A program made the translations under genes and the position numbers. A stretch of DNA of 64,000 nt, taken from positions 1,163,389-1,227,388 of the forward strand of contig CAVRMI010000007.1 in the NCBI GenBank assembly GCA_963722065.1, given 5' to 3'. Below the pieces are notes generated by a model that saw only the letters and a program-made list of their open reading frames with translations, did not search any database and was not told the DNA's origin. Below, piece after piece: positions 1-51,380 of the stretch (position 1 is its first letter; each line of letters opens with the position of its first letter). The DNA comes from an uncultured Thermoleophilia bacterium. Lineage in GTDB: Bacteria > Actinomycetota > Thermoleophilia > Gaiellales > Gaiellaceae.

Positions 1-2
1 GT

Positions 3-596
3 GTCTCTGATCAGGATCGGGAGCAAGCTGTGCTCGCGCTTCGGGACGATTTGCTGTTGGGCCGGCTGACGCTTGATGAGTTCTCGGAGCGAGTCGAGAT
101 CGCCTACCGGGCGCAGATAAGTCAGGACTTGGTCCGCGCTCGGCAGGACCTACCGAGCCCGCGTTCGGCAGACGTCGAGTCGGGCCGGCGGCAGAAGCGT
201 CTGACGGTGGCGCTGTTTGGGAGGGTGATTCGTCGAGGTCGACTGCGGCTACGGCGCCGGACGCTCGCAATCAGCGTCTTTGGCGATGTCGACCTCGACC
301 TGCGCGAGGCGGAATTGCACGACCCCCGCGTTGCGGCAAGGCTCTTCGTCTTCTTCGGCAACGTCGATCTGTATGTGCCCGAGGGCATCAACGTCGAGGT
401 TGCCGGAGCGGTCATCTTCGGCCGGTTGCGCGAGTGGGGCCGAGATGTTGTCCGCCCCGACGCGCCGACGATTTCCGTTCGGGCGTTTGGCTGTTTCGGA
501 ACTGTCGATGTCTGGCGCGTCCCTCACGACATGCGAGGCAGCTACAGCGAGATCTTCGCGCAGCTAGAAGCACAGCAGCGGCAACTGCCGGCCTAG
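3..596 (+). CDS. DUF1707 domain protein with LiaF-C/DUF2154-like beta-rich C-terminal domain (5' end outside window)
   Basis: The frame is open from nt 3: SDQDREQAVLALRDDLLLGRLTLDEFSERVEIAY is the DUF1707 signature. The C-terminal half has repeated VFGDVDLDL / FFGNVDLYVPEG / FGTVDVWRVP strands. There is no upstream stop, so the gene starts before the window. Confidence 0.7.
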   Translation, partial: VSDQDREQAVLALRDDLLLGRLTLDEFSERVEIAYRAQISQDLVRARQDLPSPRSADVESGRRQKRLTVALFGRVIRRGRLRLRRRTLAISVFGDVDLDLREAELHDPRVAARLFVFFGNVDLYVPEGINVEVAGAVIFGRLREWGRDVVRPDAPTISVRAFGCFGTVDVWRVPHDMRGSYSEIFAQLEAQQRQLPA

Positions 597-648
597 CAAC
601 TCGCCTCGCCTTGGACTCGCCGGCTGGGACGTCGAGACGCTTCTAACT

Positions 649-888
649 CAGCCGGCGAACCTGCCCGCGACGTGGGCGACCTCGTGACGTCCACTGAACC
701 TCGACCATTACCGAGGTTTTACGTGCACTTCCCAATTCGCAACTAAGGTCACAAGCAGTCGGAGCGGCCGGTGGGGAGGTGTCTCCGACTCATTGACCAA
801 CTGTCGGAGAGAACGGTTGGTCACTGGGCGTCTTGTGAGGTCGGGGCGGCTGACGGTTTTCCCCGTCCCCGGCCTCACATTTTGTTCT
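649..888 (+). repeat. Copy 1 of a ~240-bp structured repeat (candidate sRNA or non-autonomous mobile element)
   Basis: Aligns end to end with 9471-9709. The 3' ~200 nt are near-identical (4 substitutions plus a T/C-run change). Four conserved hairpins lie at 697-718, 757-790, 794-823 and 835-878. Confidence 0.8.
835..886 (+). terminator. Intrinsic-terminator-like hairpin closing repeat copy 1
   Basis: GTGAGGTCGGGG (835-846) pairs with CCCCGGCCTCAC (867-878) with one G.U pair, followed by ATTTTGTT. The U-tract exists only on the + strand. Confidence 0.5.
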
Positions 889-1025
889 GGCTCAACCGCT
901 TCGAGACGCTCAAGAGCTCGGCACGAGACGCTATCGGCGAGGAGGCATTCGAGATCGCCTGGAACGAGGGGCAAGCCCTCGGCTTCGACGACTCACTCGA
1001 GGCGGCTTATCGAGCGGTTCGCTGA
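889..1025 (+). pseudogene. C-terminal remnant (~45 codons) of a TPR/STAND-type transcriptional regulator
   Basis: The translation ...RFETLKSSARDAIGEEAFEIAWNEGQALGFDDSLEAAYRAVR* resembles the extreme C-termini of SARP/LuxR-TPR regulators (compare the end of 4931-7672). There is no gene body upstream; the repeat element abuts it. Confidence 0.4.
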
Positions 1026-1062
1026 CTTTCCAAGATTGCTCCGACTTTGGCGCCTGGCGGTG

Positions 1063-2433
1063 TCAGGCTCCCGTCGAGGGGAGGATCGGGTGATTCGACC
1101 GGAACACGTCTTCCGGATCGACGCTCGTCTTCAGGCCGCGGAGCCGCGGGTACGCGGCCTCGCCCCAGATGCTCGCGGGGTCGCGTCTCGTCTCCGCGAA
1201 GTTGGCGAACATCTGAGGTGCTGTCCACGGAGACAGCGCCTCGCTCAACGCCCCTAGTCGTGCCATGCAGGCGCCGGCCAGTTCCGCTGTCATCGCGAAG
1301 CCGACTGCGTAGAGCGCGAAGTCGCCTGCAACCGACGCGAGCACGGCATGCTCCGGGCGGGGCTCGCTGAGCGCCCCACCGAGCTGCCGTATCTCGACGG
1401 ACAGGAGCGGTGAGCCGGAGCCGGGTCCGGCGACTCGGGCGATCTCGTCGACGGCCTCCGTGGGCAGCGACTCGAGCAGGAGCCCGTCGCCGACCGCCGG
1501 AACGGGATGGTCGGGGTCCATATGAAGTTGACCTAGCACGGGCATCGGCGTTTCCTTGATCGTGTCCATAACCGGTCTCAGCCGGCGAAGCGACTCGAGC
1601 AACTTGTCCGCCTCGGCCGGATCGCCGCAATGGATCACCTCCACGATCGCGAACGACTTCCCACGAACTGGCTCCGGGATCTCCTCGATGGGCGGGAGCT
1701 GGAGCAGTCGACCGATGGTCGTGAGCTCGTCGGGCAGTCCGGCTCGGCACAGCTCGGCCCAGGTATGAAGCACCTCGGAGGCCTGTTCGAACGGGAACCA
1801 GAGAACGCCCGCGTACACCTCCGACACCGGGAACAGCCGCACCTCGAGCGTCGTGACGGCGCCGAGGTTGCCACCGCCACCGCGCAAACCCCACAGGAGC
1901 TCGGGGTTGGCGTCCTCGTCCGCGCGCACCAGTGCGCCGTCGGCGGTCACGACGTCCGCCGCGACGATGGCGTGTGCGGCGAGACCGAACTTCCGTCCGA
2001 GAAAGCTGAGGCCCCCTCCGAGTGTGTAGCCGACCGCGCCGACATCGGCTGACGAGCCGGAAAGCGGAGCCAGCCCGTGTCGTGCGGACGCCTCGATGAC
2101 CTCGGCCCAATGCGTCCCCGCCTGCACGCGGGCGACGCGCGCATCGACGTCGATCTCCACGCCCCGAAGTCGGTCGGTGCGAACCAGCAAGGTGCCGTCG
2201 AGTGGGCCCATAGACGCGGCGCCGTGCCCGGTCCCCTGGACGGCGACCCGCAGGCCGTGCTCGCGCGCGTAGTCCACACCCTCGGCGATGGCGCGCGCCG
2301 AGTCGGCAACCGCAATCGCCGCCGGCCGCTGGTCGACCGCAAGGTTCCAAGCGCGCCGCGTCTCGTCCCATTCCGGCGCGTCTGGATGGACAACGCGCAA
2401 ACCTTCCTCGGACCCCAAGCTCGTCATCGACAT
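1063..2433 (-). CDS. FAD-binding oxidoreductase, BBE/PCMH family
   Basis: Motifs VQGTGHG and GGGGNLGAVT, plus a BBE-like tail SVDPEDVFRSNHPI. The start was set at ATG 2433 (MSMTSLG) after GAAAGG; the ORF extension to 2577 looks non-coding. Confidence 0.85.
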   Translation of the reverse strand: MSMTSLGSEEGLRVVHPDAPEWDETRRAWNLAVDQRPAAIAVADSARAIAEGVDYAREHGLRVAVQGTGHGAASMGPLDGTLLVRTDRLRGVEIDVDARVARVQAGTHWAEVIEASARHGLAPLSGSSADVGAVGYTLGGGLSFLGRKFGLAAHAIVAADVVTADGALVRADEDANPELLWGLRGGGGNLGAVTTLEVRLFPVSEVYAGVLWFPFEQASEVLHTWAELCRAGLPDELTTIGRLLQLPPIEEIPEPVRGKSFAIVEVIHCGDPAEADKLLESLRRLRPVMDTIKETPMPVLGQLHMDPDHPVPAVGDGLLLESLPTEAVDEIARVAGPGSGSPLLSVEIRQLGGALSEPRPEHAVLASVAGDFALYAVGFAMTAELAGACMARLGALSEALSPWTAPQMFANFAETRRDPASIWGEAAYPRLRGLKTSVDPEDVFRSNHPILPSTGA

Positions 2434-2575
2434 CACCTTTCGTCGTGGCCGCTCAAGCGAACCTATTCCCTTGCGGCCGAAAATGCGGCGCCCACGCTCG
2501 CCCACCCCCCAAGGCCGCCCATGAGAGTGGTGCACGAGCTCGGTTCCACCTGCAATCGAGCCATAGGATCCAGCC

Positions 2576-3178
2576 ATGCTGCTCTATGACAACCCCGTCT
2601 CCGGCAACTGCTTCAAGGTTCGTCTCTTGCTGGCGCACCTCGGCATCCCGTACGAGCGACGCTTCGTCGACGTCGTCGACCGTTCAGACCCGCGCGAGTC
2701 GCTCGCCGGTTTGAACCCGGCGCGCGCTCTGCCGACAGTCGTGCTCGACGACGGGCGTCCGCTCGCGGAGTCGAACGCGATTCTCTGGTACTTCGGCGAG
2801 GGCACGCGCTTCGTCCCTACTGAACAGTTCGAGCGGGCGAAGGTTCTCCAGTGGCAGTTCTTCGAGCAGTACGAGCTGCTCCCGTCCATCGGCGTAAGTC
2901 GCTGGCTGGTCAGCTACTCGGGGTGGCCGCGCGAGCGCTACGAGTCGCGGCTTCCCGAATACACCAGCCGCGGCGAGAAGGCACTCGCGGCACTCGAGGA
3001 AGGGCTCGAGGGTCGTGACTGGCTGGTCGGCGAATCCTTCAGCCTCGCCGACATCACGCTCTACGCGTACACGCATGCCGCCAACGAGGCCGAAATATCC
3101 CTGAAGCCCTACGAGAACATCCACGCCTGGCTCGGCCGCGTCGCCGCCGAGCCCGCCCACGTTCCAATCGACGCCTGA
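2576..3178 (+). CDS. Glutathione S-transferase family protein
   Basis: The N-terminus has a thioredoxin-like GST fold (LYDNPVSGNCFKVRLLLAHLGIPYE...LPTVVLDDGRPLAESNAILWY). The C-terminal helical domain carries SLADITLYAY. Confidence 0.85.
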   Translation: MLLYDNPVSGNCFKVRLLLAHLGIPYERRFVDVVDRSDPRESLAGLNPARALPTVVLDDGRPLAESNAILWYFGEGTRFVPTEQFERAKVLQWQFFEQYELLPSIGVSRWLVSYSGWPRERYESRLPEYTSRGEKALAALEEGLEGRDWLVGESFSLADITLYAYTHAANEAEISLKPYENIHAWLGRVAAEPAHVPIDA

Positions 3179-4930: not shown

Positions 4931-7672
4931 ATGGAAGTCCGGGTGCTCGGCCAATTCGAAGTGGTCGTGGACGGCGCGCCGATCGAGCTGAGCGCGCAGC
5001 GTCCGCGAGCGGCGCTGGCCGCCCTCGTCCTGCGAGCGGGCAGGCCAACCTCCGTCGACGCCCTGACGGAGGCGGTCTGGAACGGCAACGCGCCGGCGTC
5101 GGCCGCAAGCGTGCTGCGCCTGTACATCACGCAGATTCGGCGTGCGCTTCCGCCCGGCCGCCTCGTGACGAGCCCGCCGGGCTACCGGCTCGAGCTCGAG
5201 GAGGGCGAGCTCGACGCGGCCCGCTTCGAGCTGCTGCTGGCCGACGGGAGGCAGGCGCTCAGCGAGAACAACGCCCGGCTCGCGCGCGTGCTCTTCGCCC
5301 GCGCGTGCGACCTGTGGCGGGGCGATGCGCTGGCCGACCTCACCTCGAGCGCGTTCGCGCGGGACGAGGCCTCGCGTCTCGACGACCTGCGGCTCGCGTG
5401 CATCGAGGGCCGAGTCGACGCAGATCTCCGGCTCGGCAGGCACGACCAGGTGCTGACCGAGCTCGAGCAGCTCGTTCGGGAGCACCCGCTGCGCGAGCGC
5501 CTGCGCGGGCACCTGATGACCGCCCTCTACCGGTCCGGGCGGCAGGCCGACGCGCTTGCCTGTTACCGCGAAGGGAGGACGCTGCTGGTCGACGAGCTGG
5601 GTCTCGAGCCGTCCGCGGAGCTGCGCGAGCTGGAACGCCGGATCCTCGCCCACGAGCCCGCACTCGACGCCGAGCCGGAGCCCGAGCCCGACGTCTTTCG
5701 GGTGCCGCGCCCGCAGACCGCGACGATCGGCCGTGAGGCTGCGCTGGCGGAGTTGGGCGGCCGCCTGCTCGATCCTGCAACCCGGCTCGTGACGTTGCTC
5801 GGCCCGGGCGGCATCGGCAAGACGCGGCTCGCCGTCGAGCTCGGCCACGAGCTCGGTCCGTGGTTCGCCGACGGGGCGGCGCTCGTCGACCTCGCCCCGA
5901 TCACCGAGACGGAGCTCCTGCTGCCGGCGATCGCCCGGGCCGTCGGGCTGCGGGAGACCGGCTCCGCGAGCTGGCGCGAACTGCTGGATGACGAGCTTCG
6001 GGACCGCGAGCTCCTGCTCGTCCTCGACAACTTCGAGCACCTCGTCGACGGCGCAGCGCAGGTCTCCCAGCTGCTCGATGCTGCTCCGCGTCTGACCGTG
6101 CTCGTGACGAGCAGACGCCTGCTTCGGCTGGCCGCCGAACGGGTCTTCGACGTCGACCCGCTCGACGGAGACGCCGCCCGCCGGTTGCTCGCCGCCCGAA
6201 CGGCGACCGCGGGCGCCGGGGTCGATCCCGACGGAGCCGAGTTTCGCGAGATCTGCAACCGGCTCGAGGGCCTGCCGCTGGCGATCGAGTTGACCGCGCC
6301 GTGGTTTCGGACGCTGCCGTCCGGAGAGCTGCTCCGGTTGCTCGACTCTCGCCTCGACACGCTCGCGCGAGGGGCGCGGGATGCGCCGGTGCGTCACCGG
6401 ACGATGCGTTCGGCGATCGACTGGAGTATCCAGCTGCTCGATCTCGAGGAGCAGCGGCTGCTCGGCCGGCTCTCGATCTTCAGCGGCGGCTTCACGACCG
6501 AGGCGATGCTCGATGTGGGCGGCCCGCAGGCCACGGTCGAGCAGCTCGACGCGCTCGTCTCCGCCAGCATCGTCCAGTCCACCGACGGGCGACACCGGCT
6601 GCTCGAGGTCGTTCGCGAGTACGCCGCCGAGCTGCCGTCGGCAGATCCAGAGGGAAGGAGCCTGCACGCAGGCCACTTCATCCGCTTGGCAGAGGCGGCG
6701 GAGGGCGAACTGTCGGGCGCCCGCCAGGCGGACTGGCTAGAACGCCTCGAGGTCGACCACGACAACCTCCGGGCCGCGCTCGACTGGCTCACGCGAGCAG
6801 GCGAGGCCAGCCTGGAGCTGAGGCTCGCCGCCGCCCTCGGCCGGTTCTGGTACATGCGCGGCTACCTGAGCGAGGGCCTGACGCGCCTGCAACGAGCCGT
6901 CGCAGCTGCCGCGGACGACGACGCGACGGTTGCGAAGGCGCTTCGAACATCCTCCGCGCTCGCCCTGCTGCGAGGCGACTACCCGCTCGCTCGAGCTTCA
7001 GCCGAGCACGCCCTCGAGCTGTACCGGCAGGCAGGCGACGACGCGGGCGTGGTCCGCTCGCTCAGCAACCTCGGCGCGATCCTCCACGCCCTCGGAGACC
7101 TCACGCTCGCCGCAGAGACACTCGACGAGTGCATCGACGCCTGCGCGTCCGTCGACGACGACCGGCTGATGGCCCTCGCGCGCAATAACCGCGGCGACGT
7201 CGCGCTGTCGCAGGGTGAGCTCGACCTCGCAGCTGACCAGTTCGCCCAGAGCCTCGCGCTCCTACGCACCGCGAACGACACCGCGAACATCGCACGCGCC
7301 CTCTACAACCTCGGCGCAGTTGCGGTCGAGCAACGGCGAAGCGACGAAGCCGGTGAGCTTCTGCGCGAGAGCCTCGAGCTCTCGGATCGGGTGGGCGACG
7401 TCGAGGACCTCGCCTGGTGCCTGATCGCGCTGGCAGTCGTCGCCGCCGACAACGGCGCTTCGCTCGACGCAGCGGCGATGCTCGGCTACACGACGGCGCT
7501 GCTCGACCGGATCGGTGCGTCGATGAAGCCGTTCGAGGAGCGCCTCTTCGAGCGGACACGCAGCCGGTTGCGTGAGGCACTCGGCGATGCCGAGCTCGAG
7601 GATGCCCTCGCAGCGGGCGCCCATCTGCAACGCGCAGACGCCGTCGGGCTCGGGATGAGCGTCGGCGCCTGA
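4931..7672 (+). CDS. SARP/AfsR-family regulator (OmpR-type wHTH + BTAD + NB-ARC P-loop + TPR)
   Basis: The N-terminus reads MEVRVLGQFEVVVDGAPIEL...GYRLELEEGELDAARFE. A Walker A motif LLGPGGIGKTRLA is present. The C-terminus has TPR-like repeats (LSNLGAILHALGD, LYNLGAVAVEQRR). Confidence 0.9.
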   Translation: MEVRVLGQFEVVVDGAPIELSAQRPRAALAALVLRAGRPTSVDALTEAVWNGNAPASAASVLRLYITQIRRALPPGRLVTSPPGYRLELEEGELDAARFELLLADGRQALSENNARLARVLFARACDLWRGDALADLTSSAFARDEASRLDDLRLACIEGRVDADLRLGRHDQVLTELEQLVREHPLRERLRGHLMTALYRSGRQADALACYREGRTLLVDELGLEPSAELRELERRILAHEPALDAEPEPEPDVFRVPRPQTATIGREAALAELGGRLLDPATRLVTLLGPGGIGKTRLAVELGHELGPWFADGAALVDLAPITETELLLPAIARAVGLRETGSASWRELLDDELRDRELLLVLDNFEHLVDGAAQVSQLLDAAPRLTVLVTSRRLLRLAAERVFDVDPLDGDAARRLLAARTATAGAGVDPDGAEFREICNRLEGLPLAIELTAPWFRTLPSGELLRLLDSRLDTLARGARDAPVRHRTMRSAIDWSIQLLDLEEQRLLGRLSIFSGGFTTEAMLDVGGPQATVEQLDALVSASIVQSTDGRHRLLEVVREYAAELPSADPEGRSLHAGHFIRLAEAAEGELSGARQADWLERLEVDHDNLRAALDWLTRAGEASLELRLAAALGRFWYMRGYLSEGLTRLQRAVAAAADDDATVAKALRTSSALALLRGDYPLARASAEHALELYRQAGDDAGVVRSLSNLGAILHALGDLTLAAETLDECIDACASVDDDRLMALARNNRGDVALSQGELDLAADQFAQSLALLRTANDTANIARALYNLGAVAVEQRRSDEAGELLRESLELSDRVGDVEDLAWCLIALAVVAADNGASLDAAAMLGYTTALLDRIGASMKPFEERLFERTRSRLREALGDAELEDALAAGAHLQRADAVGLGMSVGA

Positions 7673-7863
7673 CCACGGTCGTTCAGGCTGCCCCGTCGAA
7701 AGGTCGATCACAGCCGGCCGCTCGAGCCGTGAGCCAGGGGCGTCGCTCCGGACGTGACACCAGAAGGCCAGGAAGCTCTCAGCCTGTGTCTGCTGCTCGC
7801 GAGCGGCGAGCTGGGCGCGCACGGGCAGAGGCGGCGCCACGGCGACGATTCTCGGACGAGAGG

Positions 7864-8217
7864 CTAAGCGAGTACGAGTTCGCGTACCGGCTCTGCGGCC
7901 GGTCCGTGTTCGAAGCCCATCACGAAGCGCATCTCGAGCGCGGCGGCGAGTCGCTGCAAGGTCTGCACGGAGGTGCTGTGCTGGCCGCTCTCGATGCGTG
8001 AGATCGCGGAGTGGCTGGTGCCCATCCGCTGGGCGAGCTCTTGCTGGGTCAGGCCGAGTTCCGTGCGGCGGCGAATCACGATCCGGGCCAGCTGCTCGTA
8101 GGGCTCGAGCCGTTCCCGCGCAGCCTGGTAGCCGGGGCTGCGGCGCGCGCGGCGTCCCGCCGCTTCGGCGGCCGTGGAGCCTGCGGGGCTAACGCTCTTG
8201 CTCTTTGCCTTGGGCAC
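7864..8217 (-). CDS. XRE-family HTH regulator (HigA-like antitoxin candidate)
   Basis: HTH sequence LGLTQQELAQRMGTSHSAISRIESGQHSTSVQTLQRLAAAL. GTG start at 8217. Confidence 0.8.
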   Translation of the reverse strand: MPKAKSKSVSPAGSTAAEAAGRRARRSPGYQAARERLEPYEQLARIVIRRRTELGLTQQELAQRMGTSHSAISRIESGQHSTSVQTLQRLAAALEMRFVMGFEHGPAAEPVRELVLA

Positions 8218-8292
8218 GATTCATCACGTCCTTCGCCTGACTCCACGTAGGTTACCAGAATTGATAAGATCCGCAACTGCCGTCCCAGGCGA

Positions 8293-8471
8293 TCACGGCG
8301 CGTCGTGGCCGGCAGCGCGTGGTGGTGCCCGCCGCCGCGCATCCATGCGCGACTTGAAGTCCGTCCAACGGTGCCGGGCGATCTGGAGCTCGGCCTCGGT
8401 ACCTGGCCGGTGTCCTTGCGGAACATGTGGAGGCTGTACGGGGCAACCCTGACGCCACTTGCGTTATCCAT
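8293..8471 (-). pseudogene. Decayed HigB/Gp49 (RelE-superfamily) toxin remnant
   Basis: Two frames together read ...VRVAPYSLHMFRKDTGQ | GTEAELQIARHRWTDFKSRM, resembling the C-terminal LLHaFkKKtqkTP..EielA..R motif. The N-terminal half is not recoverable and at least one frameshift is present. Confidence 0.3.
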
Positions 8472-8738
8472 GGACGGCTGCTTCGGGGATGCAACCAGTA
8501 GGCCGCCCCGTGAGCAACGGGCCCTCGAGCTTCATGCCGGGAGGCCGCCGGATCGCGGGGTCGCAAACCAAGAAAGCGACGCCCGCGAGGATCCGACTTG
8601 CTGCCGCCGCCGAACGGCGGTGACCTCGACCGCGGCGCAGGTGATCAGCGCGAGCGCGCCGAGGAACAACGCCACTCCGTGACTCGATCCGCCTCCGAAC
8701 GCAGCCGAAAGGGCGTTGGCTGACCGAGTTGCTCGGGT

Positions 8739-8933
8739 TCAGCGAGGCGGGTCAGGGACGCCGAGCTGACGGCAGATCGCCCGCGCGGTCCCGAACGGAA
8801 GTTCGCGATGGCGCGGAACGGTGACAGGCCGCTCGGCAGCCGGGCTGCGCCAGACGTCGTGTCGACCTCCGTGCCGCACCCGCTCGCAGCCGTACTCGAT
8901 TAGATGCCGCTCGAGCTCGCGAAGCGCCGTCAC
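8739..8933 (-). CDS. hicA: HicA-family mRNA interferase toxin
   Basis: 64 aa: LERHLIEYGCERVRHGGRHDVWRSP...PVTVPRHRELPFGTARAICRQLGV matches the HicA/YcfA pattern. GTG start at 8933. Confidence 0.8.
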   Translation of the reverse strand: MTALRELERHLIEYGCERVRHGGRHDVWRSPAAERPVTVPRHRELPFGTARAICRQLGVPDPPR

Positions 8934-8946
8934 GATACGGAGTATC
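8934..8946. promoter_or_regulatory. Palindrome GATAC-GGA-GTATC in the hicA/hicB divergent intergenic region (possible operator)
   Basis: Perfect 5-bp inverted arms inside the 47-nt spacer between the two divergent start codons. Confidence 0.3.
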
Positions 8947-8980
8947 CCGCGTCCTGGGCAGGCCCAGTACGCTATGCAGC

Positions 8981-9199
8981 ATGGAACTGCATGTCGTGTT
9001 CGAGCCCGACGAACAGGGATGGGTACATGCGACCATCGAGGAGCTACCCGGAGTGATCACCTGCGCCCCCACGCTCGACGAGGCACGTGAACTCGTCCGC
9101 GATGCGCTCGACGAATGGCTCCAGGCATTGACCTCGACTGAGCGAGCCGCCATCGGTTCGCAGGCGACGCGCGAGACGCTCACGCTAAGCGTCGCCTGA
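8981..9199 (+). CDS. hicB: HicB-family (UPF0150) antitoxin, short form without an obvious DNA-binding domain
   Basis: 72 aa: MELHVVFEPDEQGWVHATIEELPGVITCAPTLDEARELVRDALDEWL is the typical HicB N-domain. Confidence 0.7.
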   Translation: MELHVVFEPDEQGWVHATIEELPGVITCAPTLDEARELVRDALDEWLQALTSTERAAIGSQATRETLTLSVA

Positions 9200-9470
9200 C
9201 GCGGTCCCGGCTGAGACGCTGAGGTAACGACCCCCTCTCGCCGATGATCCTGGACCCAACGACGCCCTGACGCTGTCGCGACCCGGGCACACGGTCAACC
9301 TCCTTCTCATAACCCAGGAGATCGTTACCCCCGGACGTACAGGGCTCGAACTGCTTTGCCGCTGCGTGGGGTGCACCTCAGGGCCGCCCGGAAGGCACGG
9401 GCCCGGGCATAAAGCACCACGAGGCCGGCCGCTCCGTGTCAGTCAGCCGCCCCTCTTCCGAGTGAGGACA

Positions 9471-9709
9471 CAGCCGGAGAAGCTGCCCACGACGAGGGCG
9501 CCTCGTTACGTCCACTGAACCTCGACCATTACCGAGGTTTTACGTGCACTTCCCAATTCGCAACTAAGGTCACAAGCGGTCGGAGCGACCGGTGGGGAGG
9601 CGTCTCCGACTCATTGACCAACTATCGGAGAGAACGGTTGGTCACTGGGCGTCTTGTGAGGTCGGGGCGGCTGACGGTTCCCCCGTCCCCCGGCCTCACA
9701 TTTGCTTCT
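9471..9709 (+). repeat. Copy 2 of the ~240-bp structured repeat
   Basis: See 649-888; same four hairpins. It is followed by ~625 bp with no convincing ORF. Confidence 0.8.
9656..9707 (+). terminator. Intrinsic-terminator-like hairpin closing repeat copy 2
   Basis: Same GTGAGGTCGGGG / CCCCGGCCTCAC stem as copy 1, followed by ATTTGCTT. Confidence 0.45.
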
Positions 9710-10204
9710 CGGCACCCGACCCTTGGCTTTGCACCCGCTAGAGAGGCGTATGGTCACCTGTTGTCCGCCTCTCAGCAGGGCTCGCTTGAGACTTGTCGGG
9801 CGCTTGACAGTCCTAACGAACTGTTCAACGAGTTCCCGGCTCCGCCATACGTACGTGGCCCAGGGTCAGACACATCGACGTCGACCCGTCGAGAGCGACG
9901 AGCCGGAGGGGGTTGCCTGCCACTCTGCGGCACGTCGCCCCCCTTGGATGTGTCCAGTTCGTCACCGAGCCTTCACTCGGTCGACCCCATCCCCATGGCT
10001 AATGTCGCAGTCGGCGTGTCCATGGGGTGACGGCGCCGCTTGCGAAGCCGGGGGCGGAGTGACGCCCTTCCTTTCCTCTGTCCTCGGCCTTCGCCCTCTT
10101 CTGACGGTCAGGCGCCTGGAGCGCATTGCTAGCGGCTTCTCTTCCTGATCGCTGCGCTGCCGTGGCCCTGAACTCCGCGAAGGCGCAGGCAGAGCAGCAG
10201 GTTG

Positions 10205-10226
10205 CCAGGAGGCCGCTTCGTGTCGT
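10205..10226 (+). repeat. Intergenic motif CCAGGAGGCCGCTTCGTGTCGT (22-nt perfect match to 16966-16987)
   Basis: Exact 22-mer shared by two unrelated intergenic regions. A second core copy lies at 10254-10264. Confidence 0.9.
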
Positions 10227-10336
10227 CCACCGCAAGGCGCTCCTGGCCGTGCGCCAGGAGGCCGCCGCTCTGTACGTCCGCCCGGAGACCGCCTCGAAAA
10301 CTCGGGGGCTGCGACCATTGCCGCGAGAGCGATGCG

Positions 10337-13300
10337 CTACATCCGGACGGCGGCCGGCAGAGCGACCGCGTCGACCCGTTCCGCCCACGGCTGAGCACCG
10401 AGCTGCACGAATAACTCACGCGCCTCGGCGAATGCTGCGGCGGGGTCCGGGCGTCCCGCGGAGACCAACACGCGGCCGAGATCGTAGAGCGCACGCGCTT
10501 GCTCGAACGGCATGTGCATCACACTGAATCTTCGCGCCGCGTCGCGAAGCAGGTTCTCGGCCTCTTCTACGTCGCCGTCGAGCGCGCATATTCGTCCCCG
10601 TGACACGACCTCGATCGCGTCGAGCAGCGGTGTCCGGTCGCCCGGGCTCGCCACCTCAACCGTCTCGATCAGCTCCTGGAGAGCCCCGCGGTCGCCGAGC
10701 TCGACCGCCGATTCGAGCGAGCGGAGAAGGAGCCATTTCGTGAACGGGTGGTAGTGGGTGAAGCCGTTGTCGAGGCAGATGCTGTAACCGCGGCGGGCGG
10801 TCTCGAGCGCCTCCGCCGCACGACCCTCGCCGAGGAGCAGGCACGCTTCGACGTGCAGCCTGCCGGCCAGCATCTGCAGCTCGGCATCGTCGAAATGACC
10901 GGAGATCGAGTCGAGCTCGTTGCGGGCGGCCGCCATGTCCCCGCGCCAGACTTGGATGCAAACCCGCATCGCGCGGTCGGCCGGTGCGCGGGTCGATGCG
11001 TCAACGTCGATGTTCTCGATCAGTGCAAGCGCTTCGTCCCAGCGCCCGAGGACGGTCAGCGACGTGCCCATGTGACCGAGCGACATCAGTTCCTCGACGC
11101 GCTCCCCGCGCCGCCTCGCGACCTCGAGTCCTTCGCGATCGATCTCGATCGCGTCGACGTGGCGATCGCGAGCTGCGAAATTGTACGAGAGGTTGTAGAG
11201 CGCACGCGAGTACGCCCGGGTCGGCTCGTGCGCCCGCCCGATCGCGATTGCCCGCTCGACGAGCGCCAGCGCCTCCTCGTGCCGGCCGCGCGTTGCCAGC
11301 ACGAGGTGCTTCGTGTTCAGCGCATCGACGAGGACGTCGCGCAGGACGAGCGACTCGGCGATCTCGAGTGCCCGCTCCACCCGCTCGGCCGCGGTGTCGA
11401 TGTCGCCGAGGAAGTAGCGGAGCCGCGCGTAGATCTCGATCAGTGTGGCCAGATCGGCGTCCGGCTCCTCGTCGGCCAGCACCTTAAGGGCCTGCTCGAG
11501 CCGCTCGGCGCCGCCGGTGAGATCGCCCGCGAACCACATCGACCAGCCGAGCTGGCCGGCGACGCGGGCGGCCCGCGAGGCTGAACCGGCCTCCTCGTGG
11601 AGCGCGATCGACTGCTCGAAGCGCTCGCGCGCCGCCTCGTAGCGGCCGCCACCGAATGCCGCGTCGCCGGCCTCTGCAAGCAGCTCCGCCCGGACGGACG
11701 GATCGTCGATCAAGTCGGCGGCCTGCACGAATGCGCGATCGGCCTCTTCGCTCGCTCCGAGCGACGCCGCCCGGCGGCCGGCTCGAACGAGCGCCTCGCC
11801 TGCCTTGGCTCGAATCTCGTCTGCGCCGGCGGCATTCGGAGCGGCGCGGTAGGCGTCGAGATAGTGCGCTGCGACGACCTCGGCGGCCTCGGCTTCGAGC
11901 ACCGATTCGAGATACTCCGCCGCGGCCAGGTGACGGACTCGGCGGTCTGCCCGCGACAGGGTGTCGTACGCGACGCGCTGGAGCAGATCCTGGAGAAAGC
12001 TGTACTGCCCGCGCTCCGGAGACCGCGGGTCGGCCTGCACCGACAGCACTTCCTTGCGCACGAGCGAGCCGAGCAGCGGCTCGAGCGCGTCGCCGGCACG
12101 GCCGCTGAGCGCGATCAGGCCGGCGAGCGAAAACGACTTCCCGAGCACGGAGGCGTCCTGCACCACCGCCCGTTCGTCGGGCGCGAGATCGTCGATGCGC
12201 GCAGCGATCAGCGCATGCAGGGTCTCCGGCACCTCGAGCGAGCTGATCGGTCCCGTGATCGAGTACCGGTCGCCCTCCGGCTTGAGCAGGCCCCGGTCGA
12301 GCAGCATGCGCACCGTCTCGACCGCGTAGAGGGGAACGCCCTGCGAGCGCTGAAGAATCTCACCGACGAGCTCGTCGGGCAGCCCCGGCACGAACCGGCT
12401 CATCAGCTCGCCCATCGCCCGGTCGGACAGAGGATCGAGCGAGAGCGTCGTCGAGCTTCGCCCGGCGCTCCCCCACCCCGGCCGCCGCTCCGCGATCTCC
12501 GGCCGGGTCAGCGCGAGGACGAAGACCGGATGGGCTCTCGACCAGTCGAGGAGATGCTCGATGAAGTCGAGCAGGCTCGCGTCAGCCCACTGCAGGTCCT
12601 CGAAGACGAGCGCGACCGGCGCAATGTCGGAAAGGCGCTCGAAGAAGAGCCGCCACGCCGAGAACAGATCCTGCCGTTCGAACGACTGCGGTTCGCCTAG
12701 GGCCAGCAGGTGCGCAAGCCGTGGCTCGACCCATGCTCGCTCCTCCTCATCGGGGATCGTCGTCGCCAGCACCGCCAGCAGCTTCGGCAGTGCCTGCTCC
12801 GCCGGCTCGTCCTCGGCGATGCGCGCCCGCATACGCACCATTTCAGCGAGCGCCCAGTACGCGACGCCGTCGCCGTAGGCGAGGCAGCGGCCGCGGTGCC
12901 ACCAGACCTCCTCGGCCAGCCCGTCGAGATATTTCTCGAACTCCCAGGCGAGCCGTGACTTGCCTATCCCCGCGATGCCGACGACGGTGAGCAGCTTGGA
13001 GACGCTGTCGTCGGCCGCACTATGGAAGAGCTCCTTGAGGAGGCGGATCTCGCGGTCGCGGCCGACGAACGGGGGCTCGAGCGCAGCCGACTTCACCGCC
13101 CCACCGCGCGACGCCGTCACCTGCAGCGCGCGCCACAGGTGCGCTACGTCGGACTTGCCTTTGAGCGTGTGCGCGCCCGCGTCGTCGTAGCCGATCGCCG
13201 CGCTCGAAGCGCGACGCGTCGCATCGTTCACGAGCACCGTGCCCGGCTCGGCCGTCGACTGGATGCGCGCCGCAGTGTTGACGAGGTCACCCGCGACCAT

Positions 13301-13840
13301 CCCCTGTCCCTCGGCGCCAAGCGTGACCGCGGCCTCGCCGGTGGCGACACCAGCGCGAAGCCTGACGTCGGCCCCGGCGTCCCCGCCGAGGTCGGCCACA
13401 GCCACCACGAGGTCGAGCGCCGCCCGCACCGCCCGCTCCGCGTCGTCCTCGCGGGCGACCGGCGTTCCCCAGACAGCCATCACCGCGTCACCGATGAACT
13501 TCTCGATCGTCCCCCCGTACCGCGCGATCAGCGTTCGCGCGGTGTCGAAGTACAGCGAGAGAAACTCACGCACCTCTTCCGGATCGCGCCCCTCCGACAG
13601 CGTCGTGAAGCCGACGAGGTCAGCGAAGAGCACTGAGACGAGGCGCCGCTCGGACGCGGCGGCGTCTTGGGCTCGAGCCGGGGCCGGTTCGAGTGCCGTC
13701 CCGCACTCGCCGCAGAAGCGAACGCCGGGCTCGTTCGGCGATCCGCACGCGCCACAGGCGCGCGAGAGCGCCGACCCGCATTCGCCGCAGAACTTGCGCG
13801 AGAGGGCGTTCTCCGCTCCGCAGGCGAGGCAGACGACCAT
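10337..13840 (-). CDS. Zinc-ribbon + class III adenylate/guanylate cyclase + AAA(STAND-like) ATPase + TPR signalling protein
   Basis: The N-terminus has a double zinc ribbon (CLACGAEN..CGECG, CGACGSPN..CGECG). Cyclase motifs VSVLFADLVGFT and KFIGDAVMAVWG are present, with a P-loop VVGIAGIGKSRLA and a long TPR-like C-terminus. Confidence 0.9.
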   Translation of the reverse strand: MVVCLACGAENALSRKFCGECGSALSRACGACGSPNEPGVRFCGECGTALEPAPARAQDAAASERRLVSVLFADLVGFTTLSEGRDPEEVREFLSLYFDTARTLIARYGGTIEKFIGDAVMAVWGTPVAREDDAERAVRAALDLVVAVADLGGDAGADVRLRAGVATGEAAVTLGAEGQGMVAGDLVNTAARIQSTAEPGTVLVNDATRRASSAAIGYDDAGAHTLKGKSDVAHLWRALQVTASRGGAVKSAALEPPFVGRDREIRLLKELFHSAADDSVSKLLTVVGIAGIGKSRLAWEFEKYLDGLAEEVWWHRGRCLAYGDGVAYWALAEMVRMRARIAEDEPAEQALPKLLAVLATTIPDEEERAWVEPRLAHLLALGEPQSFERQDLFSAWRLFFERLSDIAPVALVFEDLQWADASLLDFIEHLLDWSRAHPVFVLALTRPEIAERRPGWGSAGRSSTTLSLDPLSDRAMGELMSRFVPGLPDELVGEILQRSQGVPLYAVETVRMLLDRGLLKPEGDRYSITGPISSLEVPETLHALIAARIDDLAPDERAVVQDASVLGKSFSLAGLIALSGRAGDALEPLLGSLVRKEVLSVQADPRSPERGQYSFLQDLLQRVAYDTLSRADRRVRHLAAAEYLESVLEAEAAEVVAAHYLDAYRAAPNAAGADEIRAKAGEALVRAGRRAASLGASEEADRAFVQAADLIDDPSVRAELLAEAGDAAFGGGRYEAARERFEQSIALHEEAGSASRAARVAGQLGWSMWFAGDLTGGAERLEQALKVLADEEPDADLATLIEIYARLRYFLGDIDTAAERVERALEIAESLVLRDVLVDALNTKHLVLATRGRHEEALALVERAIAIGRAHEPTRAYSRALYNLSYNFAARDRHVDAIEIDREGLEVARRRGERVEELMSLGHMGTSLTVLGRWDEALALIENIDVDASTRAPADRAMRVCIQVWRGDMAAARNELDSISGHFDDAELQMLAGRLHVEACLLLGEGRAAEALETARRGYSICLDNGFTHYHPFTKWLLLRSLESAVELGDRGALQELIETVEVASPGDRTPLLDAIEVVSRGRICALDGDVEEAENLLRDAARRFSVMHMPFEQARALYDLGRVLVSAGRPDPAAAFAEARELFVQLGAQPWAERVDAVALPAAVRM

Positions 13841-14968: not shown

Positions 14969-15053
14969 CCAGGAGGCCGCCACTCCGTGACGTCCACGAG
15001 GAGACGCCCCGCGTCGCAAGCCAGGAAGGCGCGCCGCGCAATCCAGGAGGCCG
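14969..15053 (+). repeat. Cluster of CCAGGAGGCCG-family motifs (14969, 15021, 15043)
   Basis: Three core copies in one intergenic region. The first continues ...CCACTCCGTGACGTCCAC. Confidence 0.85.
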
Positions 15054-26338: not shown

Positions 26339-26409
26339 CCCAGGAAGCCGCCGCTTTTTCGGTGTGCAACCAGGAGGCTGGCTGCTTCGGGGACTCAACC
26401 AGGAGGCCA
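26339..26409 (+). repeat. Cluster of three CCAGGA(A/G)G(C)C motif copies (26339, 26368, 26399)
   Basis: CATAACCCAGGAAGCCG, AACCAGGAGGCTG and AACCAGGAGGCCA. The last is followed by an ATG 7 nt downstream. Confidence 0.85.
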
Positions 26410-27641: not shown

Positions 27642-27688
27642 GGTCATAGCCCAGGAGGCCGACATGCCGGGCGTGGCACCAGGAGGCC
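27642..27688 (+). repeat. 47-nt perfect direct repeat (partner 31586-31632) containing two CCAGGAGGCC cores
   Basis: GGTCATAGCCCAGGAGGCCGACATGCCGGGCGTGGCACCAGGAGGCC is identical at both sites. Further cores follow at 27721 and 27758. Confidence 0.9.
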
Positions 27689-27858
27689 CGGCGCCCCACC
27701 GCGTTGAACCTGGCCGTCCACCCGGAGGCCGCTGGAATGGACCGCTCAGACGTAACACCAGGAGGGCGGCGCGCGGCGTTCGCGCTGACGGATTGCGTTG
27801 AGGCGTATCGCGACCCGCCCTGCTGGACTTCCAATCCCAAGCTCGACCGTTCGATCCC

Positions 27859-31585: not shown

Positions 31586-31632
31586 GGTCATAGCCCAGGA
31601 GGCCGACATGCCGGGCGTGGCACCAGGAGGCC
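31586..31632 (+). repeat. 47-nt perfect direct repeat (partner 27642-27688)
   Basis: See 27642-27688. Confidence 0.9.
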
Positions 31633-31727
31633 GCCAGATCGGGGGGCCGCTAAGAAGCTCTAACTGAATGAAGGGACCCGTTCGTCGGTAGCGAAGTCCG
31701 TCGGCACCTGTCGTCAATCTCGGAGGG

Positions 31728-51314: not shown

Positions 51315-51380
51315 CGGCCTCCTGGCCGTTTGACCGAAGCCGGCCGCGGCCTCCTGGCCGTTGCCAACGGGGCCTCCTGG
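51315..51380 (-). repeat. Three direct copies of the CCAGGAGGCC(G) motif in reverse orientation, upstream of the integrase
   Basis: On the + strand, CGGCCTCCTGG lies at 51315 and 51347 and GGGCCTCCTGG at 51370, spaced ~22-32 nt apart. Confidence 0.85.

What the first reader, a model, noticed from the sequence alone, without database searches (positions are those of the whole stretch)
649..888. Two near-identical copies of a ~240-bp structured element ending in a terminator-like hairpin: candidate undescribed sRNA or non-autonomous mobile element
649-888 and 9471-9709 align end to end, and their flanks are unrelated. The 3' ~200 nt differ by only 4 substitutions plus a T/C-run change. The 5' ~40 nt are ~75% identical and resemble the intergenic ...CGTGACGTCCAC module described in the next finding.

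Both copies support the same fold:
- hairpin 697-718 (AACCTCG / CGAGGTT)
- hairpin 757-790 (AGTCGGAG / CTCCGACT)
- hairpin 794-823 (TGACCAAC / GTTGGTCA)
- a 12-bp GC-rich hairpin 835-878 followed by ATTTTGTT

The last hairpin has an intrinsic-terminator shape only on the + strand.

Most differences between the copies preserve the predicted structure. A757>G keeps pairing with T790 as a G.U pair. G803>A lies in a loop. The run changes are apical in the last hairpin. The other two substitutions (G767>A, T780>C) fall in the unassigned interior of the second hairpin.

Copy 1 abuts a 45-codon C-terminal stump of a TPR regulator (889-1025). Its arrival or an associated recombination therefore removed a gene body, which hints at mobility. 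No transposase, RT, TnpB/IscB or recombinase ORF lies next to either copy. I cannot place the element in any RNA family I know.
Basis: seen in the sequence. Interest (0 to 1): 0.75.

Follow-up and report, generated by a model that had tools for sequence, protein, structure and literature searches.

The report
Duplicated candidate small-RNA gene, Thermoleophilia
The two near-identical ~245-base copies are real and belong to a rare conserved non-coding element of a few soil Thermoleophilia, most likely a small RNA gene ending in a terminator; the second copy sits at a genome rearrangement junction and shows no sign of having jumped there as a mobile element.

Summary
Window 646-890 and 9468-9712 are direct copies with unrelated flanks. 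An independent short-read contig breaks at the repeat. There is no Rfam hit, no tRNA/tmRNA and no conserved ORF.

Only two homologues were found, one copy each in two Thermoleophilia MAGs:
- L001 is the orthologue of the copy-2 locus, so copy 2 is ancestral.
- L002 shares only the ~195-nt core, at 84% identity, in a different gene context.

The core is far more conserved than its surroundings (2.8% against 15% divergence between copies; 96.5% against ~83-88% between orthologues). The GC-rich terminator hairpin plus U-rich tail is kept in all four sequences. The three upstream hairpins are not supported: L002 breaks them without compensation, folds no better than shuffles, and covariation is inconclusive (2 compensatory pairs).

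Copy 1 lies exactly at a synteny breakpoint. Its left flank matches a relative as far as 644, and its right flank matches another relative from 891. That right flank is the last 44 codons of an 835-aa STAND NTPase gene. There are no significant terminal inverted repeats, no target duplication and no transposase.

Verdict: a narrow-lineage candidate sRNA gene, locally duplicated. The mobile-element reading is not supported. Interest is modest.

The parts
646..890 (+). Copy 1, the secondary copy: a 245-bp segment sitting exactly between two blocks that are syntenic with different relatives.
   Evidence: Homology to L011 ends at 644. Homology to L007 begins at 891. Homology to copy 2 spans 646-890.
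9468..9712 (+). Copy 2, the ancestral locus.
   Evidence: It lies inside window 9406-10263, which is collinear with L001 7346-6494 at 89% identity on both sides of the element.
692..834 (+). Conserved core of copy 1 (copy 2 equivalent: 9513-9655). The first half is AT-rich and poorly structured. The rest contains predicted hairpins 757-790 and 794-823.
   Evidence: 4/143 differences between the copies, against 7/46 in the 5' part. 96.5% identity between copy 2 and L001, against 72-87% in most adjacent stretches (one 150-nt stretch 93%). About 84% identity to L002, whose flanks are unalignable.
730..755 (+). Invariant 26-nt block TCCCAATTCGCAACTAAGGTCACAAG. It contains a TANNNT-type hexamer, TAAGGT, at 744-749. 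It is a possible promoter -10 region or a single-stranded RNA segment (inferred).
   Evidence: Identical in all four sequences. The region is not significantly structured (z=-1.9, and 0.3 in L002). The consensus promoter scan did not flag it.
816..840 (+). Invariant 25-nt block GTTGGTCACTGGGCGTCTTGTGAGG. It includes the unpaired linker CUGGGCGUCUU between hairpin 3 and the terminator, which is a candidate functional or seed segment (inferred).
   Evidence: Identical in all four sequences. The linker is unpaired in the MFE folds.
835..878 (+). GC-rich terminator-type hairpin, followed by the U-rich tail 879-888 (AUUUUGUUCU).
   Evidence: Energies are -28.5 to -32.4 kcal/mol with z from -3.2 to -5.7 in all four sequences, despite sequence changes in L002. 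A U-rich tail is present in all four. The terminator shape exists only on the + strand (and the sequence itself).
891..1025 (+). Stump of a truncated gene: the last 44 codons plus the stop of a DUF4062/NB-ARC STAND NTPase.
   Evidence: 86% identical to residues 792-835 of the intact 835-aa protein L007:5716-8223. Pfam domains. DNA homology to L007 starts at 891.
30..596 (+). DUF1707/LiaF_C gene forming the left flank of copy 1.
   Evidence: Pfam assignment. Window 1-644 is 93% identical to L011, where the gene is followed by an ABC transporter and no element is present.
9406..10263 (+). Long non-coding stretch shared with L001 that contains copy 2. It carries 1-nt indels and several CCAGGAGGCCG modules.

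Best explanation
The ~200-nt core (692-890 and 9513-9712) is a selectively constrained non-coding gene restricted to a few Thermoleophilia.

It is most likely a stand-alone small RNA, read on the + strand and ended by a conserved intrinsic terminator.

Shown:
- It is non-coding.
- It is much better conserved than the surrounding DNA.
- The terminator hairpin plus U-rich tail is kept in three genomes.
- It occurs in three unrelated gene contexts.

Inferred:
- The invariant AT-rich block with TAAGGT (744-749) supplies the promoter. The RNA would then start near 755-757 and be about 130 nt.
- Alternatively, the block is a single-stranded part of a ~200-nt RNA.
- The invariant unpaired linker CUGGGCGUCUU, just before the terminator, is the working (base-pairing or protein-binding) segment.
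- The upstream hairpins are strong in this genome but are not demonstrably conserved features.

Copy 2 is the ancestral locus. Copy 1 is a secondary 245-bp copy lying exactly at a rearrangement junction. That junction joins the DUF1707 locus to the last 44 codons of a STAND NTPase gene. Copy 1 was most likely laid down as a templated patch or duplicate from the locus 8.8 kb away during that rearrangement, not by transposition. Its core has since stayed almost unchanged, either through selection or through gene conversion.
For: Non-coding:
- No frame is open and conserved across the four sequences, and 1-nt indels separate them.

No match to anything known:
- No Rfam family at gathering threshold in the window, L001 or L002. 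Only E>3 noise appears with permissive filters.
- No tRNA or tmRNA.

Constraint:
- Between the copies, the core shows 4/143 differences against 7/46 in the 5' part (Fisher p=0.005).
- Between copy 2 and orthologue L001, the core is 96.5% identical against 72-87% in most flanking stretches.
- L002 keeps 84% identity over ~195 nt, with invariant blocks of 26 and 25 nt, while its flanks are unalignable.

Terminator:
- Hairpin energy is -28.5 to -32.4 kcal/mol with z from -3.2 to -5.7, followed by a U-rich tail, in all four sequences. L002 has a different inner stem sequence.

Independent unit:
- The neighbours differ in the window, L001 and L002.
- The 20-mer occurs once in each of the only two GTDB representative genomes that contain it.

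Copy 2 is ancestral:
- It is collinear with L001 on both sides.

Copy 1 lies at a breakpoint:
- Homology to L011 ends at 644 and homology to L007 starts at 891. Neither relative carries the element at that place.
Against: - Only four sequences exist, and three of them are close relatives.
- Covariation is inconclusive: 2 compensatory pairs against 0.5 expected, reached by 26/500 shuffles. RNAalifold's covariation term is unfavourable at +1.31.
- In L002, hairpins 1-3 carry uncompensated mismatches. Its sequence folds no better than shuffles (z=0.03 and -0.38). A structured-RNA function for the body is therefore not supported.
- The consensus scans found no sigma-70-like promoter, and did not flag the terminator because its loop is irregular.
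- TAAGGT has no acceptable -35 hexamer at 16-18 nt.
- No transcript data are available.
- Sequence-level conservation would equally fit a DNA-level function.
- The low divergence of the core between the two copies could come from gene conversion rather than selection.
- Other stretches of the same intergenic region are also 95-97% conserved with L001.
Confidence: 0.45

Rival explanations
1. It is a cis-acting transcript element rather than a free sRNA. One version: a conserved 3'-UTR/terminator module of whatever gene lies upstream. Another version: a transcription attenuator or leader (riboswitch-like) controlling read-through into downstream DNA.
For: - In each of the four loci an ORF of the same orientation lies upstream: DUF1707 ending at 596; hicB-like ending at 9199; an 87-aa ORF ending 30-40 nt before the L002 core; and ORF 7487-7858 in L001.
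- In L001 a 209-aa gene of the same orientation follows ~590 nt downstream. In L002 an HU-like gene follows ~260 nt downstream.
- A segment upstream of copy 2 (9442-9453, GTCAGCCGCCCC) is a perfect 12-nt complement of the terminator's 5' arm. This is an antiterminator-like arrangement.
Against: - Copy 2 has no downstream + strand gene. It is followed by ~630 nt of non-coding DNA and then a convergent gene.
- Copy 1 is followed by a gene stump.
- The upstream and downstream genes are unrelated in the four loci, so no regulon logic is visible.
- The antiterminator complement is absent upstream of copy 1 and reduced to ~6 bp in L002.
- The aptamer-like body is not structurally conserved in L002.
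- No Rfam riboswitch or leader hit, even at E<10.
Confidence: 0.2
2. It is a non-autonomous mobile element (MITE-like, or an IS-end derivative) mobilised in trans. Copy 1 would mark a transposition, or an element-mediated adjacent deletion or recombination.
For: - There are two copies with unrelated flanks.
- Copy 1's right end coincides with the truncation point of a gene, and both its ends coincide with synteny breaks. Adjacent deletions ending at an element terminus are typical of transposable elements (established knowledge).
- L001 lacks exactly the first 10 nt (CAGCCGGAGA) of the segment shared by copies 1 and 2.
- The element occurs in different gene contexts in three genomes.
Against: - No transposase, TnpB/IscB, RT or integrase lies near either copy.
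- The 5'/3' terminal complementarity is no better than shuffled controls in any of the four sequences.
- There is no target-site duplication. The 10-nt repeat TCGAGACGCT (632-641 and 901-910) lies outside the junctions. It is already present, with one mismatch each, in the unoccupied flanks of L011 and L007. Its 9-mer recurs at 924 and 9172.
- The probe 20-mer occurs once in each of the two other genomes, and there is no further copy in 64 kb.
- The homology between L002 and copy 2 runs ~12 nt past copy 1's right end, and L002 lacks the 5' 45 nt. The ends are therefore not shared element termini.
- No match in IMG/VR, phage or plasmid collections.
Confidence: 0.1
3. It is a DNA-level element: a cluster of protein-binding sites, such as an operator/promoter region, a partition, transfer or recombination site, or an attachment site. 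Under this view its conservation is in the sequence, not in an RNA.
For: - Conservation in L002 lies in primary-sequence blocks, not in base pairing.
- The element contains short inverted repeats of operator type, TGACCAAC-N14-GTTGGTCA and AACCTCG-N8-CGAGGTT.
- It contains three GTCGGRG repeats, at 758, 805 and 840.
- The neighbourhood is highly rearranged and carries a toxin-antitoxin insertion.
Against: - The strand-specific terminator hairpin with a U-rich tail is maintained through sequence change in L002. That points to a transcript.
- No recombinase, relaxase or partition gene lies nearby.
- The 8.6 kb between the two direct copies holds no integrase, and both copies are complete. It is therefore not an attL/attR pair.
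Confidence: 0.1

Closest known systems
Lineage-specific trans-acting bacterial sRNA genes with Rho-independent terminators (for example actinobacterial 6C, Mcr7/MrsI-type sRNAs)
   Same: - An intergenic, non-coding unit of roughly 130-200 nt.
- A conserved terminator hairpin with a U-rich tail.
- A conserved short unpaired stretch next to the terminator.
- A variable body and a narrow phylogenetic range.
- Different neighbouring genes in different genomes.
   Different: - No sequence or structure match to any Rfam family, including 6C, 6S and Ms1.
- No transcript evidence.
- The promoter is not identified.
- The targets are unknown.
MITEs and other small non-autonomous repeats (Correia, RUP, BOX, ERIC, REP/BIME)
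   Same: - A size of about 240 bp.
- More than one copy in this genome.
- Strong predicted secondary structure.
- One copy lies next to a disrupted gene.
   Different: - No significant terminal inverted repeats.
- No target-site duplication.
- A single copy in the two other genomes.
- The ends are not shared with the distant homologue.
Templated insertions or filler DNA at rearrangement junctions (NHEJ capture, or template switching of the FoSTeS/MMBIR type)
   Same: - Copy 1 is a short (245-bp) copy of a nearby sequence, 8.8 kb away.
- It sits precisely between two segments that are not adjacent in relatives.
- There is at most 1-2 nt of junction microhomology.
- Ku is encoded in a related contig.
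   Different: - This describes how copy 1 arose, not what the element is.
- The copied segment corresponds rather neatly to the conserved unit plus its terminator. A random template switch does not predict that.
TnpB/IscB guide RNAs (omega RNA/reRNA, HEARO) and IS200/IS605 PATEs
   Same: A structured non-coding unit of ~150-250 nt that can occur as short repeats.
   Different: - No TnpB, IscB or TnpA is nearby.
- No Rfam HEARO or IS605-orfB hit.
- The two copies share no common flanking target tetranucleotide.
- The element ends in a terminator rather than running into a guide.

Membership tests
Any Rfam 15 family | Covariance-model score at or above the family's gathering threshold | tested here: not met
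   There were 0 hits in the whole window, L001 and L002. With permissive filters on both copies, only E=3.4-8.3 noise appeared, far below gathering.
Trans-acting sRNA gene | Non-coding and intergenic | tested here: met
   No conserved open frame, and 1-nt indels among the homologues. The element lies between called genes in all loci.
Trans-acting sRNA gene | Intrinsic terminator at the 3' end on the coding strand | tested here: met
   A hairpin of -28.5 to -32.4 kcal/mol, z from -3.2 to -5.7, plus a U-rich tail, in all 4 sequences. The simple scan did not flag it because the loop exceeds 8 nt.
Trans-acting sRNA gene | Own promoter | tested here: inconclusive
   An invariant TAAGGT (TANNNT type) lies at 744-749 in an invariant AT-rich block. 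There is no acceptable -35, and the consensus scan found nothing.
Trans-acting sRNA gene | Discrete transcript | not testable with these tools
   No expression data are available.
Structured RNA (conserved fold) | Base pairs maintained by compensatory change across homologues | tested here: inconclusive
   2 of 52 pairs are compensatory, against 0.5 in shuffles (26/500 shuffles reach this). 13 cells are unpaired, nearly all in L002. The RNAalifold covariation term is +1.31. L002 fold z=0.03.
MITE / non-autonomous transposon | Terminal inverted repeats | tested here: not met
   The best 5'/3' duplex is no better than shuffled tails in any sequence (113-426 of 500 shuffles do as well).
MITE / non-autonomous transposon | Target-site duplication at the junctions | tested here: not met
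   The junctions at 644/646 and 890/891 carry no duplication. The nearby 10-nt repeat pre-exists in the unoccupied flanks of the relatives.
MITE / non-autonomous transposon | Many dispersed copies | tested here: inconclusive
   2 copies in 64 kb. The probe 20-mer occurs once in each of the two GTDB genomes that hold it. The rest of this genome could not be fetched.
IS200/IS605 PATE or TnpB/IscB guide RNA | Adjacent or genomic TnpB/IscB/TnpA, and a conserved flanking target motif | tested here: not met
   No such ORF lies near either copy. The left flanks differ (TTCTA against GAGGA).
Riboswitch / attenuator leader | A regulated ORF downstream on the same strand | tested here: not met
   There is none after copy 2 (a convergent gene lies at 10337-13840), and only a stump after copy 1. 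One is present at 260-590 nt in L002 and L001.
attL/attR of an integrated island | An integrase inside the bounded segment, with one partial repeat | tested here: not met
   Genes between the copies are an FAD oxidase, a GST, a SARP regulator, an HTH protein and hicB. There is no recombinase. Both copies are full length.
DGR template/variable repeat | A nearby reverse transcriptase and adenine-specific differences | tested here: not met
   No RT is present. All four core differences are transitions, in both directions.

The most novel reading that the evidence does not exclude
Copy 1 is a copy of the transcript rather than of the DNA. The 245-bp patch runs up to 12 nt past the terminator stem, about where an intrinsically terminated RNA would end. 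It sits blunt (0-2 nt microhomology) in a rearrangement junction. It could therefore be a retro-copy or an RNA-templated break-repair patch made from an abundant small RNA. That would be a bacterial case of sRNA gene duplication through an RNA intermediate.
Probability: 0.04. Interest if true: 0.7.

Novelty: new member of a known kind. Interest (0 to 1): 0.3.

Why it matters
If it is transcribed, this would be a first candidate regulatory RNA for Thermoleophilia. That is an abundant but almost uncultured soil class, and my one literature query returned no paper describing one.

The locus also gives a clean, datable example of how a small non-coding gene gets duplicated: a 245-bp copy deposited exactly at a rearrangement junction that destroyed a STAND NTPase gene.

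The family is tiny (three genomes) and nothing about its function is established. The practical value is therefore as a lead for covariation analysis and metatranscriptomics, not as a finding in itself.

Tried and rejected
Searches for more homologues that found nothing:
- A genome-contig scan with a 20-mer gave only L001 and L002.
- The first metagenome scan gave 0 hits. The second gave 4 low-GC coding hits, L003-L006, which are chance matches outside the 18-mer.
- IMG/VR gave 0 hits in two scans.
- blastn against phages and plasmids gave nothing.

Looking for spurious ORF calls over the element:
- I concatenated all six frames of copy 1 and L002 into one protein query for the 5.8-billion-protein database.
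- No hit reached E<=0.01.
- This is a weak negative, because only the 8000 candidates sharing most words with the query were scored.

Fetching the window's own genome:
- Exact-protein look-ups for the GST and for P0121 failed.
- P0121 is the identical DUF1707 protein, listed on a 1.24-Mb contig.
- The genome-wide copy number therefore stays unknown.

Identities rejected:
- Small protein. Frames are not conserved. The TTG ORF at 793/9614 runs through both copies but is frame-shifted in L001 and L002.
- 6S-like rod. The fold is multi-hairpin with no long-range 5'/3' helix.
- Closing stem or TIR. I first thought the C660/G884 against G/C difference was compensatory, but duplex energies are at chance level in all four sequences.
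- TSD TCGAGACGCT.
- Homology of the 5' 45 nt with L002. Alignment scores are below the shuffle mean.
- attL/attR island and DGR (see the membership tests).
- Stump similarity to the two TPR proteins in the window. There is none. The true parent was found through L007.

Full report

Yes.
- Window 649-888 and 9471-9709 align end to end, and the sequence on either side does not align.
- Using relatives to fix the junctions, I place the shared segment at 646-890 and 9468-9712.
- Differences between the copies are unevenly spread:
  - 7/46 in the 5' part (646-691).
- 4/143 in the middle (692-834).
  - 6/58 in the terminator loop and tail.
  - The 5' part against the middle gives Fisher p=0.005.
- There is no third copy in the 64 kb, even a degenerate one.
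- The repeat is not an assembly artefact. An independent short-read contig (L014, Logan ERR11594399) is identical to window 7570-9537 and stops 29 nt into the identical run.
The folds are much more stable than shuffles: z about -4.1 for 247 nt, and -4.9 for 755-888.

**2. What it is not**

- No Rfam 15 family matches at gathering threshold in the window, L001 or L002. Permissive scans of both copies give only noise.
- There is no tRNA or tmRNA.
- No reading frame is open and conserved across the homologues, and 1-nt indels separate them.
- No transposase, TnpB/IscB, reverse transcriptase or recombinase lies near either copy or between them. The genes are:
  - DUF1707/LiaF_C at 30-596
  - FAD/BBE oxidase at 1063-2577, minus strand
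  - GST at 2576-3178
  - SARP-type BTAD/NB-ARC/TPR regulator at 4931-7672
  - HTH_3 at 7864-8217, minus strand
  - hicB-like at 8981-9199
  - cyclase-AAA-TPR at 10337-13840, minus strand

**3. Relatives**

- A scan of one genome per GTDB species with a 20-mer from the core found two loci. Each has one match, and both are Thermoleophilia MAGs from Danish soils (L001 and L002).
- JGI metagenome contigs, IMG/VR, phage and plasmid collections gave nothing real.
- A six-frame trick to find spurious ORF calls over the element also gave nothing.
- The family therefore has four sequences from three genomes.

L001 is the orthologue of the copy-2 locus.
- Window 9406-10263 is collinear with L001 7346-6494 at 89% identity, on both sides of the element. 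1-nt indels show the whole stretch is non-coding.
- Copy 2 is therefore ancestral.

L002 shares only the core.
- The match covers roughly window 9527-9721, at 83-85% identity.
- Its gene context is unrelated.
- Its upstream 45 nt cannot be aligned.
- Its homology runs about 12 nt beyond the right end of copy 1.

**4. Evidence for constraint**

- Between copy 2 and L001, the 143-nt core is 96.5% identical. Most adjacent stretches are 72-87%, though a few downstream stretches also reach 95-97%.
- Between the two copies in this genome, the core has diverged 2.8% against 15% for the 5' part.
- In L002, two blocks of 26 and 25 nt are invariant: TCCCAATTCGCAACTAAGGTCACAAG and GTTGGTCACTGGGCGTCTTGTGAGG.
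- The terminal GC-rich hairpin is kept in all four sequences. Energies are -28.5 to -32.4 kcal/mol, with z from -3.2 to -5.7. L002 has a different inner stem (GACGCG/CGCGTC instead of GACGG/CCGTC). A U-rich tail is always present.
- This shape exists only on the + strand.

**5. Evidence against a conserved fold for the body**

The two window copies and L001 are too similar to test the fold. L002 is the only informative sequence.
- L002 breaks hairpins 1-3 about as often as it preserves them.
- RNAalifold finds 2 compensatory pairs among 59, with an unfavourable covariation term.
26 of 500 shuffles reach this, and 13 cells are unpaired.
- L002's sequence folds no better than shuffles: z=0.03 for 207 nt, and -0.38 for the hairpin 2-3-terminator part.
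- The AT-rich first third, which includes hairpin 1, is not significantly structured even in the window (z=-1.9).

What is conserved is primary sequence plus the terminator. That is the usual pattern for a base-pairing sRNA gene (promoter, seed, terminator), not for a ribozyme or riboswitch-like RNA.

**6. How copy 1 got there**

Two relatives bracket it.
- L011, whose DUF1707 protein is 94% identical, matches window 1-644 at 93%. It then continues into an ABC transporter with no element present.
- L007, whose FAD oxidase is 92% identical, matches window 891-2491 at 91%. There the convergent gene is an intact 835-aa DUF4062/NB-ARC STAND NTPase.
- The window keeps only the last 44 codons of that gene, at 86% identity.

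Copy 1 therefore fills exactly the gap between two blocks that are not adjacent in relatives. Microhomology at either junction is 0-2 nt.
- It is not a simple insertion, because the other 791 codons of the gene are not on its left side.
- There is no target duplication. The nearby 10-nt repeat TCGAGACGCT lies outside the junctions, pre-exists in both unoccupied flanks, and its 9-mer recurs locally.
- Terminal complementarity is at chance level.

The most economical reading is a templated patch or duplication from the locus 8.8 kb away, laid down during a rearrangement. Element-mediated deletion remains possible but has no positive support.

One coincidence is unexplained. L001 lacks exactly the first 10 nt (CAGCCGGAGA) of the segment shared by copies 1 and 2.

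**7. Most likely mechanism (confidence about 0.45)**

I think this is a self-contained small-RNA gene read on the + strand.
- Shown: it is non-coding, it is constrained, its terminator is conserved, and it is independent of its neighbours.
- Inferred, promoter: the invariant AT-rich block may hold the promoter. TAAGGT at 744-749 fits the actinobacterial TANNNT -10. That gives a start near 755-757 and an RNA of ~130 nt consisting of two hairpins, an unpaired CUGGGCGUCUU linker and the terminator.
- Inferred, working segment: that linker would be the functional part.
- Weak points: there is no -35 hexamer, the consensus scan finds no promoter, and there are no expression data.

Rivals:
- A cis-acting 3'-UTR or attenuator element (0.2).
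- A MITE-like mobile element (0.1).
- A DNA-level protein-binding site cluster (0.1).

**8. Novelty and value**

- No described family matches, so this is a new candidate. It is still a new member of a familiar kind: a lineage-restricted sRNA gene.
- It is known from only three genomes and has no demonstrated transcript or fold.
- The rearrangement-junction position of copy 1 is a tidy observation but not extraordinary.
- Interest: 0.3.

Noticed in passing
window, e.g. 10205-10264, 14969-15053, 26340-26409, 27651-27768, 31595-31633, 51325-51380 (minus strand): An 11-nt module, CCAGGAGGCCG, with a Shine-Dalgarno-like AGGAGG inside. It occurs 31 times (up to 1 mismatch) against 3.2 expected. It is almost always intergenic and on the strand of the downstream gene. 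It often forms tandem arrays of 2-4 copies spaced 30-45 nt apart. The last copy sits at SD distance from a start codon. Many copies have an upstream partner that pairs with CCAGGAG (for example CTCCTGGC..GCCAGGAG at 10240-10264). The modules are indel-polymorphic between the window and L001.
   Followed up: partly
window 9425-9453 versus 760-771 and 843-854 / 9664-9675: The module just upstream of copy 2 contains two perfect 12-nt complements of element segments. CCGGCCGCTCCG complements CGGAGCGGCCGG, which is perfect only in copy 1. GTCAGCCGCCCC complements the terminator 5' arm GGGGCGGCTGAC. This is an antiterminator-like geometry. It is only partly kept in L001 and is absent upstream of copy 1.
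   Followed up: partly
window 8598-9222 and 9257-9405: Relative to L001, the window carries two insertions just upstream of copy 2. One is ~620 bp and holds the hicB-like gene (8981-9199). The other is 149 bp and contains a CCAGGAG module. The intergenic region around the element is a hot spot for insertions.
   Followed up: partly
window 9717-10263, especially 9766-9805 and 9886-10005: The ~550 nt of non-coding DNA downstream of copy 2 is conserved with L001. Sub-stretches reach 95-97%, as high as the element's core. In L001 this region leads into a 209-aa gene of the same orientation, which is missing from the window. It may hold further functional non-coding elements or a long leader.
   Followed up: no
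window 891-1025; L007 5716-8223: The truncated gene is a DUF4062/NB-ARC (STAND) NTPase of 835 aa, not a recognisable TPR regulator by Pfam. Only its last 44 codons survive in the window.
   Followed up: yes
window 1-2600 versus L011 and L007: Synteny with close relatives (91-93% DNA identity) holds only in blocks of 0.6-1.6 kb. Window 1-644 matches L011 and 891-2491 matches L007, and the neighbours differ beyond each block. The genome is strongly mosaic in this region.
   Followed up: partly
window 632-641, 901-910, 924-932, 9172-9180: TCGAGACGCT flanks copy 1 at 5 and 10 nt outside its junctions. Its 9-mer, CGAGACGCT, recurs at 924 and near copy 2 at 9172. The two flanking copies pre-exist in the relatives' unoccupied flanks, each with one mismatch. 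It is not a target duplication, and its significance is unclear.
   Followed up: yes
window 9471-9480 versus L001 around position 7270: L001 lacks exactly the 10 nt (CAGCCGGAGA) with which the homology between copies 1 and 2 begins. The coincidence of this indel with the left boundary of the duplicated segment is unexplained.
   Followed up: partly
window 758-764, 805-811, 840-846: Three GTCGGRG repeats lie inside the element: in the hairpin 2 5' arm, the hairpin 3 loop and the terminator 5' arm. Each can pair with CUCCGAC at 783-789. They are only partly conserved in L002.
   Followed up: no
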